26,501 nt of DNA, taken from a virus. Lineage: Duplodnaviria > Heunggongvirae > Uroviricota > Caudoviricetes. Numbering within the stretch: the first letter of the stretch is position 1; each line of letters starts with the position of its first letter. The stretch lies in IMG/VR virus record IMGVR_UViG_2534682163_000012, positions 1-26,501 of that record; one strand, written 5' to 3'. The position numbers were made by a program. Below are positions 3,001 through 6,000 of this stretch, piece by piece.

Positions 3001-6000
3001 ATTTGGCGCTTTTTTCATTTCTGCTCTCTCCACGCGGCAATCATGTTTTTCAGTTCCTGTAGTTTTTTATCCACATCCACACGTGACACACGGTTATTTC
3101 TGAAAGTCGGGATTTCCCGCCGGAATCTGCAAATAAAGATCTCCACGTTCAGCGAACTAAGAAATGAATAGCCATCACGGATAAAATACACACGGTCAAA
3201 CATCAGTTTTTTTACCGTTACTCTGTTACCGTTCTTATCCAGATAAATAGCGCCGGGGACAATTTTAGGGTGTGCATAACCGCTGGCAGTCAAGCCAGAT
3301 AAATACGTTCTCATGATTATTTATCCCCGATTTGAATCAGTATTCGCTTTCTTTATAGCATTTAATGCATCTGTGGCATTTTCAATGGTGCACCGTAACG
3401 AAATATCAAAATGTCCAAGCATTGCCAGTAACAAACCGATATTACCCATATCAATGCGCATGGCCTTTTCGTCATAGTCCTCATTTTCTGACGCATGCCA
3501 CATCAGGCTACCAATTGACGCAACAGCCATTGATATATTGTTAGTAGCCCCATCCGCAGCGGAATAAACCTTTTTAGCAATATCATGCTCACAGTTAAAA
3601 TGCGTATTAATCAGGTACTGGTAATTGGTCATGTCAGGCATGGAACACCTCCTGACGAATACGGGCGGCGAATACAGCAACACAACCGGACGGGCAACGG
3701 CTACGCGCTTCGCGTTCCGTCCAGGCGGTGACGTGGATGATTTGAGATTCTGACGCGCCAAAGATGATAAAGCGCCAGATAAAGGCGGTTTGAGAATGTA
3801 CAAGGGTAGGGGTAGTAGCCATGTTGGCAGCCTCCTTGATTGATGGAATGTAACCACCGCAGGAGGTGAGAAGCTCGCTGGCGGTGGACTGTACAGGGTT
3901 CTCACAACTGGCAATCAAGGGAACCAGCCTGACCGAAGTCAGCCCCATACAGCCCACCATTGTATAGGTGTGCGTGTGCGCCGATACAAAAAAAGACGCG
4001 TGCGGCGTCTGTATCGCCTCGATTGTCAGCGGGGTGAGAATCCCGGCACCCGTTTTATGAGGTGCGCGGGAATCATAGCCATTTTTGCTGGTGGCGATCA
4101 ACTGGTTTTTCATACCCGCTTTATTCAGGTTGTGCGAGTCCCGCCCTTGCGGGTGTGTGGTATGATTTCTCATAGCTACCTCGATACTTTCGCTATCGTT
4201 GGTGGTCAGAGGCTGCGAAAGGACGGCAATCCTTTTCAGCCTCGTTTGCATTGAGTGATAAACACTCAGCTGGATTCCAGTATAATCACTAAGTGGAATC
4301 CACTTCAAGCGTTTTGTTTTGGTCTTTTTCGTGTATACTGGATTCCAGTAATCACAAAGGGAACCAGAAATGGAAAGAGACCATATCAATAACAAATCAC
4401 AGAAATTACAGGCTCGCGCCCCGCATGAAGTTGTTGAGGCTATGGAGCAAGTAAAAGAAACAGGCGAGAGCACTGCGCAATTTATCGTTACAGCCATGCG
4501 AGGCGAGATCAAACGCCGCCAGCGCCGTAAGGCCAAAGAATCAGAATAATCACTATCAGCGCCGTGGTGTGAGGTACTACGGCGCATTGCTTTACAGGGC
4601 AGTATCATGACCAACAACACACTATCACCAATACAAGACACGCAAACGCAAGATGATGAAATCATCCGGCAAAGGCAGTCAGAAGCCTGCGCCAGACTTG
4701 AGGAAGAACTAACCAGAACAAAAATACCACCACCAGCGCCGCGCTTAGTGCCACCAGAAAAATTTGCCCTTGAAGATTTTGTCGATAAATACCCACGGCG
4801 GCTTAAATCCGGCAAAAACCGACCGCCAGGATGAGTGCACAAAACCGAACTATGAAACGGATTATTCCGTTTCCGGGGCGTTTGTGTGTGTATAAAGAGT
4901 AAGCTATGCTCTTTTATAGCCATAATCGTTACCTCAATTAATGGTTTGGTTAGACGCCCCGCTACTGCCGCAAACAGTTCGGGGCGTTGTCGTTTACATC
5001 CTCTTACTGAGGTGTGATTTAAATTAAATTCAACTGAATCACAGGCAAAGTGTTTTTTGTGATTCTTTTTTGTGTATACTGAATCACATCTTTTGTTTAG
5101 GAGAATGCACATGGCAAAAAACACTATCAACGACAAATCAAAACAGATTTCAATTCGTATCCCACATGATGCTTTTGATGGCATGGAATCCGTAAAACTG
5201 GACGGCGAAAGCAACGCCGGATTCATAGTAACCGCCATGCGCGGGGAGATCGCCCGCCGCCAAGCAGAAGGAAGCAGTGAAAATCCTCTGATTTCTTCTC
5301 TCGATGCATTGGCGCAAGTGGAAAAAATTGGTATTAAAGCTACGGAAGAACTCGGGCAACTTATCGCCATCGCTCGTGAAGAACTACAGCGCCGCAAGGC
5401 CAAAGAATCAGAATAAAAACCACCAGCGCCGTGGTGTGGGGAATCGCGGCGGCAATCATAGGAGTAAAAGATGTTAAAATTAAAAAAACATGTACCAATG
5501 ATGGTTGCTTTAATTATCACAATCTTTCTCTTAATATCATGCTTTGAGAAAAATAGTCTTTGCTCAAACGATAAGGGCGATTTATTACGGCGTGCTTGCG
5601 ATGTAGAGTTGAAAAAAAGTTGAGCACTACCTAACCGAGACAATGCCGTAGTTCCTGTAATCACAGGATCGCTCAGGCTTTGCCCACCAGCCGCAAATAT
5701 GGCATTGTTGGCGATGCTCATGCGTTGGGGATAACGCGCAATTTGTGTTGAAGGGCCACCGTGACAGGTGGCCTTTTCTTTGCCTGTTATCCGGCAATTG
5801 TGGCGCTTCTTCACACAGTTGATATAATTCCCCTGCACTGATCCAATTTTTTCGCAGCAGGTTAATTGTTCGCAAGGGCGCTCCGGCAACGGGGCGCTTT
5901 TTGTTTTTACCCACCAGCACAATAAAAATCTTCATTTTCCATTTTTGTAAAATTTCATGCTTTCCGGACGACGGGCTATATGTCATTTTTTAGCAGAAGA

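What the first reader, a model, noticed from the sequence alone, without database searches (positions are those of the whole stretch)
3834..4065. C4-type antisense RNA module in front of the satellite replication operon, supported by helix covariation and loop-to-SD complementarity
On the minus strand an ~82-nt element (3879-3960) sits between a terminator and the first gene of the operon (gene A, gene B, gene C, primase). Compared with its prophage counterpart (23542-23622) the sequence is only about 65% identical, yet three helices are preserved. Closing helix: satellite GGUGGGCUGUAUGGGG / CCCUGUACAGUCCACC versus prophage GGUGGGGCGUACAGGG / CCCUGUACGUCUCACC, all 16 positions paired in both, including a U-A to C-G swap. 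Hairpin 2: CUGAC-UUCG-GUCAG versus CCGAC-UUCG-GUCGG. Hairpin 3: CUGG/CCAG versus CCGG/CCGG, each with a 12-nt loop. The 12-nt loop is complementary to the SD region of the downstream gene: satellite loop CCUUGAUUG pairs with CAAUCAAGG (3834-3842) overlapping AAGGAGG. Changes fall on first and second codon positions and are compensatory, which fits RNA structure rather than a peptide. This matches the known mechanism of P1/P7 c4 RNA, whose loops pair with sites at the RBS of the downstream icd-ant message.
Basis: partly seen in the sequence, partly recalled or inferred. Interest (0 to 1): 0.85.

Follow-up and report, generated by a model that had tools for sequence, protein, structure and literature searches.

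The report
Known C4/CI immunity RNA in satellite

Summary
Confirmed, but already known. Both elements (3877-3964 and 23539-23626, minus strand) match Rfam C4 (RF01695) at 75.4 and 82.3 bits. The gathering score is 45, and P1's own c4 scores 68.8. Each is preceded by an IsrK/seqA-type leader (RF01394). The three helices are real: on 25 diverse homologues 99.6% of cells pair, 13 pairs change on both sides, and 0 of 500 shuffles match this.

The hairpin loop (b') and the 3' single-stranded joint (a') each have a complement downstream (a2; b2 over the SD of an Icd/Kil-like gene). Each also has one upstream, in the leader just before its terminator (a1, b1). Across 34 specificity variants from viral contigs, a'/a2 is complementary in 34/34 at a fixed position.

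The layout aligns closely with the P4 immunity region (seqA, CI, seqC, nested eta/kil), followed by a primase operon. P4 CI is therefore the closest analogue; P1/P7 c4 is in the same family.

The satellite is a helper-embedded PICI inside the Stx2 prophage's terminase gene. C4 and isrK hits in such elements were reported in 2023, and the c4 and c4-a1b1 motifs in 2010. Processing and repression were not tested.

The parts
4279..4308 (-). Upstream sigma-70-like promoter (TTGAAG-18-TATACT) facing the long ORF. It is flanked by the inverted repeat CTGGATTCCAGTATA (4270-4284 / 4334-4348), a likely operator, and lies divergent to a YlcI/YnfO gene (4370-4549, +).
   Evidence: function inferred
3634..4173 (-). 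Long 'eta-like' ORF (179 aa, ATG at 4173 with an SD). It runs in frame through the internal promoter, IsrK, C4, a2 and b2 into the Icd/Kil-like domain.
   Evidence: P4 has the same nesting. The frame starting at the C4 AUG is open for at least 45 codons in 75 of 79 homologous modules.
4072..4101 (-). Internal sigma-70-like promoter (TTGATC-18-TATGAT) that places the transcription start at about 4065, the 5' end of IsrK. It is the analogue of P4 PLE, P1 P51 and Gifsy-1 PisrK.
   Evidence: phage-type homologues carry TTGACT-17-TATATT at the same place
3989..4065 (-). IsrK / seqA / c4-a1b1-type leader RNA carrying a1 (4034-4040, TTCTCAC) and b1 (4017-4025, CAATCGAGG). It ends in an intrinsic terminator (stem-loop 3994-4010 plus a T-run).
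   Evidence: Rfam RF01394, 63.3 bits against a gathering score of 50; terminator; sites
3877..3964 (-). C4/CI-type antisense RNA. The predicted mature species is 3883-3958 (76 nt), by analogy with the annotated ends of P1 c4. b' is the 12-nt loop at 3912-3923; a' is the 3' joint at 3899-3906.
   Evidence: Rfam RF01695, 75.4 bits; fold; covariation; P1 annotation
3866..3872 (-). Target site a2 (TTCTCAC), complementary to a'.
   Evidence: In 34 of 34 specificity variants, a2 has at least 7 contiguous Watson-Crick pairs with its own a', at a fixed position.
3854..3887 (-). Conserved alternative hairpin. The 3' arm of the C4 closing helix (CCACCGC, 3881-3887) pairs with GCGGTGG (3854-3860), leaving a2 in the loop. 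It may be the equivalent of the P4 t4 terminator.
   Evidence: arm and partner co-vary across module classes. The terminator role is inferred.
3831..3842 (-). Target site b2 (CAATCAAGG, 3834-3842) overlapping the Shine-Dalgarno sequence AAGGAGG (3831-3837).
3634..3822 (-). Icd/Kil-like gene (62 aa), the first gene of the regulated operon. Its translation initiation region closely resembles that of P4 kil.
   Evidence: NCBIfam NF033153, 59.7 bits; P4 comparison
1201..3641 (-). Rest of the tightly overlapping operon: a 106-aa ORF (3321-3641), DUF4222 (3015-3314) and a D5_N / DUF5906 / Pox_D5 primase-helicase (1201-3033).
23651..23727 (-). IsrK-type leader of the prophage copy, with a1 at 23696-23702, b1 at 23676-23686 and a terminator at 23656-23673.
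   Evidence: Rfam 59.3 bits
23539..23626 (-). C4 RNA of the prophage copy, with b' at 23574-23585 and a' at 23561-23568.
   Evidence: Rfam 82.3 bits
22924..23534 (-). Targets of the prophage copy, a2 (23528-23534) and b2 (23491-23500), followed by a Rha-family antirepressor-type gene (ATG at 23481).

Best explanation
The element is an immunity RNA of the C4/CI family that keeps the satellite's replication operon off.

Shown here by sequence:
- An internal promoter (4072-4101) starts a leader, IsrK (3989-4065), that carries sites a1 and b1 and ends in an intrinsic terminator.
- Read-through of that terminator would transcribe a tRNA-like three-helix RNA (C4, about 3883-3958).
- C4 exposes two antisense elements: b' in a 12-nt hairpin loop and a' in the 3' joint.
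- Immediately downstream lie a2 and b2. b2 covers the Shine-Dalgarno sequence of an Icd/Kil-like gene, which heads a tightly overlapping operon ending in a primase-helicase.

Inferred from P1 c4, P4 CI and Gifsy-1 IsrK:
- C4 is cut out of the read-through transcript (by RNase P at the 5' end) and accumulates.
- It pairs through a' and b' with a2 and b2 on new transcripts and blocks the ribosome at the icd/kil-like start.
- The untranslated RNA then terminates early, by Rho or at the conserved hairpin that holds a2 in its loop, so the primase operon stays silent.
- Pairing with a1 and b1 next to the leader terminator raises termination there and so limits C4's own synthesis.
- Free short IsrK can act as a decoy that titrates C4.
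- Transcripts from the upstream, operator-flanked promoter (4279-4308) are translated as a long ORF straight through IsrK, C4, a2 and b2. This would make them insensitive to C4 and switch the operon on, as with P4 eta.

The prophage copy applies the same logic to a Rha-type antirepressor, with a different a'/b' specificity.
For: - Family match: Rfam C4 and isrK hit both copies above gathering. P4 CI (74.9 bits) with its seqA leader (isrK, 60.8 bits) and P1 c4 (68.8 bits) belong to the same families.
- Stability: both copies are more stable than shuffled sequence.
- Helix covariation: 99.6% of cells paired against 33-46% in slid controls, 13 pairs with changes on both sides, 0 of 500 shuffles as good.
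- Variable antisense elements: 115 modules from viral contigs gave 79 unique modules and 34 a'/b' combinations on near-constant helices.
- Co-varying targets: an RNA's own a'/a2 has at least 7 contiguous Watson-Crick pairs in 34/34, against a mean of 4.6 when a' is paired with another variant's site. For b'/b2 the means are 8.9 against 4.9. The upstream a1 site has at least 7 pairs in 31/34. All sites sit at fixed positions.
- Not chance: the bipartite pattern occurs exactly three times per module, with 0.00-0.01 expected.
- P1 layout: the P1 GenBank record annotates a1, b1, c4, a2, b2 and icd in the same order and spacing.
- P4 layout: P4 has the same nested ORF, the same sites and a closely similar kil translation initiation region.
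- Genes: Icd-like domain and primase; promoter and terminator.
- Literature: an approximately 80-nt processed species (STnc1160) and 139-fold activation of translation by IsrK supplied in trans are shown for the Gifsy-1 homologue (PMC4825925). The P4 eta/kil/CI/seqA logic is summarised in PMC10111431.
Against: - No expression, processing or repression data exist for this locus.
- The strong intrinsic terminator between the promoter and C4 means C4 is made only by read-through, at an unknown level.
- In Gifsy-1, constitutive expression of the C4-like species did not relieve IsrK-mediated growth arrest; arrest was even more pronounced (PMC4825925). The trans-repressor role of the lambdoid version is therefore not established.
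- The U-tract after the alternative hairpin is weak in the satellite copy (UUACAUU).
- HE-PICIs at the same terminase site in O145 and O157 strains lack C4 altogether, so the module is dispensable for this satellite type.
Confidence: 0.85

Rival explanations
1. The region is simply protein-coding: the N-terminal part of an 'Ash/Eta/Icd-like' protein. On this view the apparent RNA structure is incidental.
For: The AUG at the 5' end of C4 is in frame with the downstream gene in both window copies, with no stop codon. That frame stays open for at least 45 codons in 75 of 79 homologous modules, against 20 and 4 for the other two frames. PGAP annotates 'ash family protein' or 'Icd-like' pseudogenes across it. 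In Gifsy-1, translation from this AUG ('orf45') is needed for expression of the downstream gene (PMC4825925).
Against: Differences between the two window copies show no third-position bias (9:8:8). The helices keep pairing through 13 pairs with changes on both sides. The most variable segments are exactly those that co-vary with RNA target sites up to 120 nt away. Hershko-Shalev et al. report that the orf45 nucleotide sequence is conserved while its amino-acid sequence is not. The ORF is best read as a second use of the same DNA, as with P4 eta, not as an alternative to the RNA.
Confidence: 0.03
2. The C4-like sequence acts only in cis, as part of an inhibitory mRNA leader fold. Short IsrK is the real trans-acting regulator (an activator), and the approximately 80-nt species is a processing by-product. 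This is the Gifsy-1 model.
For: In Gifsy-1, IsrK supplied in trans raises anrP translation 139-fold. Point mutations and compensatory changes between IsrK and 'orf45' support direct pairing. Constitutive STnc1160 did not counteract IsrK (PMC4825925). The window modules have the same parts: a1 and b1 in IsrK are complementary to a' and b'.
Against: Homologous RNAs from P1/P7 and P4 are genetically defined trans-acting immunity factors (P1 GenBank annotation; PMC10111431; my knowledge of Citron and Schuster 1990 and Ghisotti et al. 1992). Conservation of a2 and b2 complementarity at the SD in 34/34 variants is not needed for a purely IsrK-centred switch. The two models are compatible if IsrK acts as a decoy for C4.
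Confidence: 0.1
3. The satellite copy is a non-functional relic picked up by recombination from an Stx phage.
For: The module is 85-91% identical to modules of Stx2a phages, where it precedes Rha antirepressors. Related HE-PICIs at the same integration site lack it. The neighbouring region shows a tandem duplication of the YlcI/YnfO-promoter cassette, which indicates mosaicism.
Against: Every part is intact and mutually matched: promoter, a1, b1, terminator, all 27 base pairs, a', b', a2, b2, the SD and the open frame. The same satellite-type module, 98.8% identical, occurs at a different chromosomal site (cspD/yljB) in other E. coli.
Confidence: 0.04

Closest known systems
P4 immunity region (CI RNA, seqA/seqC, nested eta/kil genes, left operon with the alpha primase)
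   Same: - Same Rfam families: P4 CI matches C4 at 74.9 bits and the P4 seqA leader matches isrK at 60.8 bits.
- Same order: internal promoter, a1b1 leader with a terminator hairpin and T-run, CI, a2, a hairpin formed with the CI 3' arm, then b2 over the SD of a Kil/Icd-like gene beginning MATT.
- A long ORF in frame across the whole region.
- A downstream primase-helicase operon in a satellite.
   Different: - The a'/b' specificity differs.
- The satellite here is a PICI-type element embedded in a prophage terminase gene, with no sid/psu/delta genes visible in the window.
- The long ORF starts after a divergent YlcI/YnfO gene, whereas in P4 it is translationally coupled to alpA/ORF88.
- No experimental data exist for this locus.
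P1/P7 immI operon (c4 - icd - ant)
   Same: - Same Rfam family (P1 c4 scores 68.8 bits).
- Same three-helix fold, with b' in the hairpin loop and a' in the 3' joint.
- The annotated a1, b1, a2 and b2 sites are in the same order, with b2 at the icd SD.
- The first regulated gene is Icd-like.
   Different: - P1 regulates an antirepressor (ant) behind icd; here a replication operon follows.
- The P1 leader matches Rfam c4-a1b1 (51 bits) and matches isrK only weakly (35 bits, below gathering).
- The window leaders match isrK above gathering.
Gifsy-1 isrK-orf45(STnc1160)-anrP locus of Salmonella
   Same: The prophage copy in the window (IsrK, then C4, then a Rha-type antirepressor) has this arrangement. 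It shares the IsrK terminator read-through design, the AUG inside the C4-like element, and a1/b1 complementarity to the C4 loops.
   Different: - In Gifsy-1, orf45 stops at the anrP start; in both window copies the frame is fused to the downstream gene.
- The satellite copy controls icd/primase, not an antirepressor.
- The authors treat the C4-like part as an ORF and mRNA leader, not as a C4 family RNA.
HE-PICIs and Gram-negative PICIs (Mageeney et al. 2023, PMC10111431)
   Same: A satellite with int, an AlpA-like HTH gene, a Bro-N gene, primase and SSB, inserted in a lambdoid prophage late gene (gpA terminase). That paper states that the Rfam C4 and isrK profiles hit several GN-PICIs and HE-PICIs and proposes an immunity function.
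   Different: That paper does not analyse the a/b target sites or specificity variation. Many HE-PICIs at this same site lack the module.

Membership tests
Rfam C4 antisense RNA (RF01695; P1/P7 c4, P4 CI) | Covariance-model score at or above the curated gathering score (45 bits), over the full length | tested here: met
   75.4 bits (3877-3964) and 82.3 bits (23539-23626), model positions 1-87 of 87. For comparison, P1 c4 scores 68.8 and P4 CI 74.9.
Rfam C4 antisense RNA (RF01695; P1/P7 c4, P4 CI) | Three helices: a 17-bp closing helix, a UUCG-capped 5-bp hairpin and a 5-bp hairpin with a loop of about 12 nt, supported by covariation | tested here: met
   The minimum-free-energy folds reproduce the structure. 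On 25 sequences, 99.6% of cells pair, 13 pairs change on both sides, 0 of 500 shuffles do as well, and slid controls pair at 33-46%.
Rfam C4 antisense RNA (RF01695; P1/P7 c4, P4 CI) | Two exposed antisense elements (a', b') complementary to a2 and b2 just downstream, with b2 at the ribosome-binding site of the next gene | tested here: met
   a' at 3899-3906 with a2 at 3866-3872 (7 Watson-Crick pairs); b' at 3912-3923 with b2 at 3834-3842 (9 Watson-Crick pairs, overlapping AAGGAGG). Each RNA matches its own targets better than other variants' targets across 34 variants.
Rfam C4 antisense RNA (RF01695; P1/P7 c4, P4 CI) | A second copy of the target sites (a1, b1 / seqA) in the leader upstream of the RNA | tested here: met
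   a1 at 4034-4040 and b1 at 4017-4025, inside the isrK match. The prophage copy has a1 at 23696-23702 and b1 at 23676-23686.
Rfam C4 antisense RNA (RF01695; P1/P7 c4, P4 CI) | Processed (5' end by RNase P) from the operon transcript into a stable RNA of about 77 nt | not testable with these tools
   Only by analogy. The ends annotated for P1 c4 (G of AUGG ... CCACC) map to 3958 and 3883. An approximately 80-nt species is reported for the Gifsy-1 homologue (PMC4825925).
Rfam C4 antisense RNA (RF01695; P1/P7 c4, P4 CI) | Represses the downstream operon in trans (immunity function) | not testable with these tools
   Requires genetics or reporter assays.
IsrK / seqA leader (RF01394) | Covariance-model score at or above gathering (50 bits), plus a terminal intrinsic terminator | tested here: met
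   63.3 bits (3989-4065) and 59.3 bits (23651-23727). Terminators at 3994-4010 and 23656-23673, each with a T-run.
IsrK / seqA leader (RF01394) | Hfq binding and trans-activation of the downstream cistron | not testable with these tools
   Known only for Salmonella Gifsy-1 (PMC4825925).
P4-type immunity cassette (eta/kil nested genes) | A long ORF that starts upstream of the internal promoter and runs in frame through the leader and the RNA gene into a short Kil/Icd-like gene with its own SD | tested here: met
   ORF 3634-4173 (179 aa) contains the 62-aa Icd-like gene in frame. P4 has the same arrangement at 8168-8812. Translation was not tested.
P4-like satellite (sensu stricto) | sid, psu, delta and epsilon genes for helper manipulation | not tested
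   None of these lies in the part of the satellite inside the window (1-8160), and no search for them was run. The element has PICI-type content instead (int, HTH, Bro-N, primase, SSB). A related copy continues into a ClpP-capsid fusion gene. It is therefore not filed as P4-like.
Helper-embedded PICI (HE-PICI) | [quoted passage not shown] | tested here: met
   ORF 8321-9328 carries a complete GpA_ATPase domain but no nuclease domain and abuts the satellite int gene (6921-8159). In a related genome the missing 'terminase gpA endonuclease' half resumes after the satellite. The junction is present in 83 E. coli genomes.

The most novel reading that the evidence does not exclude
The C4 system may provide RNA-level cross-talk between satellites and phages. 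Two observations were made.

1. The satellite's exact a'/b' specificity (UGUGAGAA / UUCCCUUGAUUG) is shared with the Rha-antirepressor modules of some Stx2a phages: VT2phi_272 and the viral contigs L041, L079 and L094. Infection by, or induction of, such a phage could therefore repress the satellite's replication operon through its C4, or derepress it through its IsrK decoy.

2. The resident helper prophage is heterospecific, yet its b' loop is predicted to pair with the satellite's icd SD-to-AUG stretch (GAGGCUGCCAACAUG) at -13.9 kcal/mol. This is stronger than the satellite's own b' on its b2 site (-12.4), and it is the single best of 757 pairings between a loop and another variant's target (mean -6.5, sd 1.9).

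If real, a helper-embedded satellite would be silenced by its helper's immunity RNA.
Probability: 0.1. Interest if true: 0.65.

Novelty: already known. Interest (0 to 1): 0.2.

Why it matters
For annotation, this stretch should be labelled as IsrK and C4 RNA genes with their a1/b1 and a2/b2 targets. PGAP currently calls it 'ash family protein' or an 'Icd-like' pseudogene.

Biologically, it shows that a PICI-type satellite embedded in the terminase gene of an Stx2 prophage carries a P4-style RNA immunity switch on its replication operon. That switch has a specificity different from its helper's own C4. The survey also shows how modular the system is: 26 loop variants and 17 joint variants are recombined on a constant scaffold, each matched by four target sites.

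None of this changes current understanding. The family was described in 1990-1992, the motifs in 2010, and their presence in PICIs and HE-PICIs in 2023.

Tried and rejected
- I tried to replicate the helper-to-satellite cross-pairing in independent composites. I fetched HE-PICI/helper regions from O145:H28, O157:H7 and two other STEC genomes. An nhmmer scan found no C4 in the usual place between the YlcI/YnfO gene and the icd-like gene in any of these satellites. One (L129) has a weak hit further downstream. No independent pair was available, so the idea stays a post-hoc observation.
- Forti et al. 1999 (PMC94026), on P4 eta/kil, is not held. I relied on the summary in PMC10111431 and on my own recollection, and marked it as such.
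- The test for the alternative hairpin (matched against mismatched arm/partner pairs) is noisy, because the arms share CCAC/GGUGG cores. I report the covariation qualitatively only.
- The idea that codon-position bias separates RNA from coding constraint gave a flat 9:8:8. It is consistent with RNA constraint but weak on its own.
- Two protein-family calls failed on wrong frame coordinates and were repeated.
- I considered and rejected a tRNA or tmRNA identity (ARAGORN finds only the three prophage tRNAs) and a purely coding reading (see rivals).
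Full report

Yes. On the minus strand, Rfam's curated C4 model (RF01695) matches 3877-3964 at 75.4 bits and 23539-23626 at 82.3 bits. Both matches are full length (1-87/87), against a gathering score of 45. Run the same way, P1's own c4 scores 68.8 bits and P4's CI RNA 74.9.

Each window copy folds alone into the family's three-helix shape. The energies are -42.0 and -47.7 kcal/mol, z = -4.1 and -6.0, and none of 200 shuffles is as stable.

So are the double changes between the two copies: U-A to C-G and C-G to G-U in the closing helix, and U-A to C-G in hairpins 2 and 3.

Small corrections are needed:
- The element itself is 68-71% identical between copies. The 65% figure fits the whole module from leader to ATG.
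- The differences spread 9:8:8 over codon positions. There is no third-position excess, but they are not concentrated at positions 1 and 2.

**2. Does covariation survive more homologues?**

A pattern scan of viral contigs returned 120 loci. Of these, 115 contained parsable modules, 79 of them unique.

I aligned 25 diverse sequences, including P1 and P4. The Rfam structure pairs 99.6% of cells, against 33-46% when the 3' partners are slid by 1-3 columns. Thirteen of 27 pairs change on both sides, and none of 500 column shuffles reaches any observed measure.

One caveat: my search pattern fixed most of hairpin 2, so the informative variation lies mainly in the 17-bp closing helix (10 of its 17 pairs change on both sides).

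**3.

The helices are nearly constant, but two single-stranded segments are hypervariable and recombine freely. They are the 12-nt loop of hairpin 3 (b', 26 variants) and the joint 3' of it (a', 17 variants), giving 34 combinations.

Each variant has matching sites at fixed positions:

| Site | Position | Contiguous Watson-Crick pairs with its own RNA | With another variant's RNA (mean) |
|---|---|---|---|
| a2 | 8-12 nt after C4 | at least 7 in 34/34 | 4.6 |
| b2 | about 40 nt after C4, ending in the SD | mean 8.9 | 4.9 |
| a1 | in the leader upstream | at least 7 in 31/34 | 4.3 |
| b1 | in the leader upstream | mean 7.9 | 4.7 |

In the window the coordinates are:

| Element | Satellite | Prophage |
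|---|---|---|
| a1 | 4034-4040 | 23696-23702 |
| b1 | 4017-4025 | 23676-23686 |
| b' | 3912-3923 | 23574-23585 |
| a' | 3899-3906 | 23561-23568 |
| a2 | 3866-3872 | 23528-23534 |
| b2 | 3834-3842 (SD 3831-3837; ATG 3822) | 23491-23500 (ATG 23481) |

A search for the bipartite pattern a-N(5-35)-b finds exactly three hits per module in the whole 26.5-kb window: a1b1, a2b2, and C4 itself on the opposite strand. The number expected by chance is 0.00-0.01.

This is the a1/b1/a2/b2 scheme annotated in the P1 GenBank record, in the same order and spacing.

**4.

Rfam isrK (RF01394) matches 3989-4065 (63.3 bits) and 23651-23727 (59.3 bits), against a gathering score of 50. Each match starts about 7 nt after a sigma-70-like promoter. 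In the satellite this is TTGATC-18-TATGAT at 4072-4101; in the prophage copy TTGATT-17-TACACT at 23734-23762 was located by eye, because the consensus scan did not report it. Each match ends in a hairpin plus T-run, at 3994-4010 and 23656-23673.

The same model matches the P4 seqA leader (60.8 bits). It matches the P1 leader weakly (35 bits), and that leader also matches Rfam c4-a1b1 at 51 bits.

**5. Context.**

The satellite gene after b2 is Icd-like (NF033153, 59.7 bits against a cut-off of 25). It heads a tightly overlapping operon:
- a 106-aa ORF (3321-3641);
- DUF4222 (3015-3314);
- a D5_N / DUF5906 / Pox_D5 primase-helicase (1201-3033).

The P4 region aligns with the satellite module nearly position for position. 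After the 3' end of the RNA the order is the same: GAGC, a 7-nt a2, CTCC, a segment complementary to the RNA's 3' arm, b2 ending in AGGAGGCTGCCA, and then ATGGCTAC, which starts a 62-65-aa MATT... protein (P4 Kil).

As in P4 (eta/kil), a long ORF (3634-4173, 179 aa) runs in frame through the promoter, IsrK and C4 into the Icd-like domain. It has its own SD and an upstream promoter at 4279-4308, flanked by an inverted repeat. The frame that begins at the AUG inside C4 is open for at least 45 codons in 75 of 79 modules, against 20 and 4 for the other two frames. The DNA is therefore very likely dual-use, which fits P4 eta and Gifsy-1 orf45.

In the prophage copy the regulated gene is a Rha-family regulator (PF09669, 95.9 bits). 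This is the Gifsy-1 isrK-orf45-anrP arrangement.

**6. A conserved alternative hairpin.**

The 3' arm of the C4 closing helix (3881-3887, CCACCGC) is complementary to 3854-3860 (GCGGTGG), which leaves a2 in the loop. Arm and partner co-vary across module classes: CTCACCAC/GTGGTGAG, GCTACCAC/GTGGTAGC, GCTATCGC/GCGATAGC. Many copies follow it with UUUUC.

From memory of Briani et al. 2000, P4 has a CI-dependent terminator t4 between cI and timm. This hairpin is a candidate equivalent. That is an inference, not a test.

**7. Most likely mechanism.**

Shown here: the parts, their order and their complementarity.

Inferred from P1 c4, P4 CI and Gifsy-1 IsrK:
- Read-through of the IsrK terminator yields a precursor.
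- C4 is excised from it. By analogy with P1's annotated ends, the mature RNA would span 3958-3883.
- C4 pairs through a' and b' with a2 and b2 and occludes the SD of the icd/kil-like gene.
- The untranslated transcript terminates early, so the primase operon stays off.
- Pairing with a1 and b1 next to the leader terminator autoregulates C4 (P4 t1, from my recollection of Briani et al. 2000).
- Short IsrK can titrate C4. In Gifsy-1, IsrK supplied in trans raises translation 139-fold (PMC4825925).
- Translation of the long ORF from the upstream promoter would override the block (P4 eta, as summarised in PMC10111431).

The main caveat comes from Gifsy-1. There, constitutive expression of the C4-like species did not counteract IsrK. 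For the lambdoid version, a cis-structural role is therefore a live rival.

**8. Comparison with what is known, and novelty.**

- The c4 and c4-a1b1 motifs were catalogued across Proteobacteria and phages in 2010 (PMC2864571).
- The Gifsy-1 locus was dissected in 2016 (PMC4825925).
- Mageeney et al. 2023 state that the Rfam C4 and isrK profiles detect relatives of P4 CI and seqA and hit several GN-PICIs and HE-PICIs, and they propose immunity functions (PMC10111431).
- At least one GenBank Stx2 phage record already annotates 'C4 antisense RNA | isrK Hfq binding RNA' (LC710661).
- A 701-bp query spanning the module and its flanks (3600-4300) has a match of at least 80% identity in 1771 of 5426 complete E. 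coli genomes.

The finding is therefore a correct recognition of a known element.

**9. The host element.**

The satellite is a helper-embedded PICI.
- ORF 8321-9328 holds a complete gpA ATPase domain but no nuclease domain, and it abuts the satellite integrase.
- In a related O145:H28 genome the missing 'terminase gpA endonuclease' half resumes about 10 kb later, after the satellite.
- The junction is present in 83 complete E. coli genomes.
- Several of those HE-PICIs lack the C4 module. The window's regulatory region looks like a mosaic; a 98.8%-identical module occurs in a PICI at cspD/yljB.

**10. The one thing that might be new.**

- The satellite's a'/b' pair is identical to that of the Rha modules of some Stx2a phages: VT2phi_272 and contigs L041, L079 and L094.
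- The resident prophage is heterospecific, yet its b' loop is predicted to pair with the satellite's SD-to-AUG stretch at -13.9 kcal/mol. This is the best of 757 pairings between a loop and another variant's target (mean -6.5, sd 1.9), and it beats the satellite's own b'/b2 (-12.4).
I rate RNA cross-talk between helper and satellite at about 10%.

Noticed in passing
window 6921-9328 (junction about 8160-8320): The satellite integrase abuts a truncated large-terminase (gpA) gene of the Stx2 prophage. The ATPase domain is complete and the nuclease half is missing. The satellite is therefore a helper-embedded PICI. The same junction occurs in 83 complete E. coli genomes of several STEC serotypes.
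   Followed up: yes
window 23574-23585 versus 3820-3834: The resident prophage's C4 b' loop is predicted to pair with the satellite's icd SD-to-AUG stretch (GAGGCUGCCAACAUG) at -13.9 kcal/mol. This is the best of 757 pairings between a loop and another variant's target, and it is stronger than the satellite's own b'/b2 duplex. It may be helper-to-satellite cross-repression, or it may be chance.
   Followed up: partly
window 3899-3923; L123 3100-3187 (phage VT2phi_272); L041, L079, L094: The satellite's exact a'/b' specificity is shared with C4 modules that precede Rha antirepressor genes in some Stx2a phages. The satellite and those phages would therefore be 'homo-immune' at the RNA level.
   Followed up: partly
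window 4270-4584 and 5048-5451: Tandem, diverged duplication of a cassette made of a YlcI/YnfO-family gene (4370-4549 and 5072-5416, + strand) and its divergent promoter region. The promoter region carries palindromes (CTGGATTCCAG or GTGATTCAG types), probably protein operators for the satellite's upstream promoter.
   Followed up: partly
window 14272-14482 (-): Rfam STnc100 sRNA match (145.8 bits) just downstream of stx2B (14570-14833).
   Followed up: no
window 15897-16148 (-): Three prophage tRNA genes (Met-type CAT anticodon, annotated tRNA-Ile in related genomes; Arg-TCG; Arg-TCT) directly upstream of stx2A, as is typical of Stx phages.
   Followed up: no
L003, L005 and most IMG/VR modules: In the largest class of modules, the gene after b2 is a 76-aa MANRKQHRAIAERRHIQTEINRRL... 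protein. It lies out of frame with a long overlapping 'ash family' ORF that starts at the C4 AUG, so two long overlapping frames are both kept open.
   Followed up: no
L126 20038-20235; L128 22057-22254; L130 22558-22755: HE-PICIs at the same terminase site in O145:H28, O157:H7 and other STEC strains have an intergenic region of only about 190 nt and no C4 or IsrK. Their Icd-like gene starts with the same MRNH(T/I)THPQ residues that begin the window's long ORF. The window's RNA module therefore looks like an insertion into that gene.
   Followed up: partly
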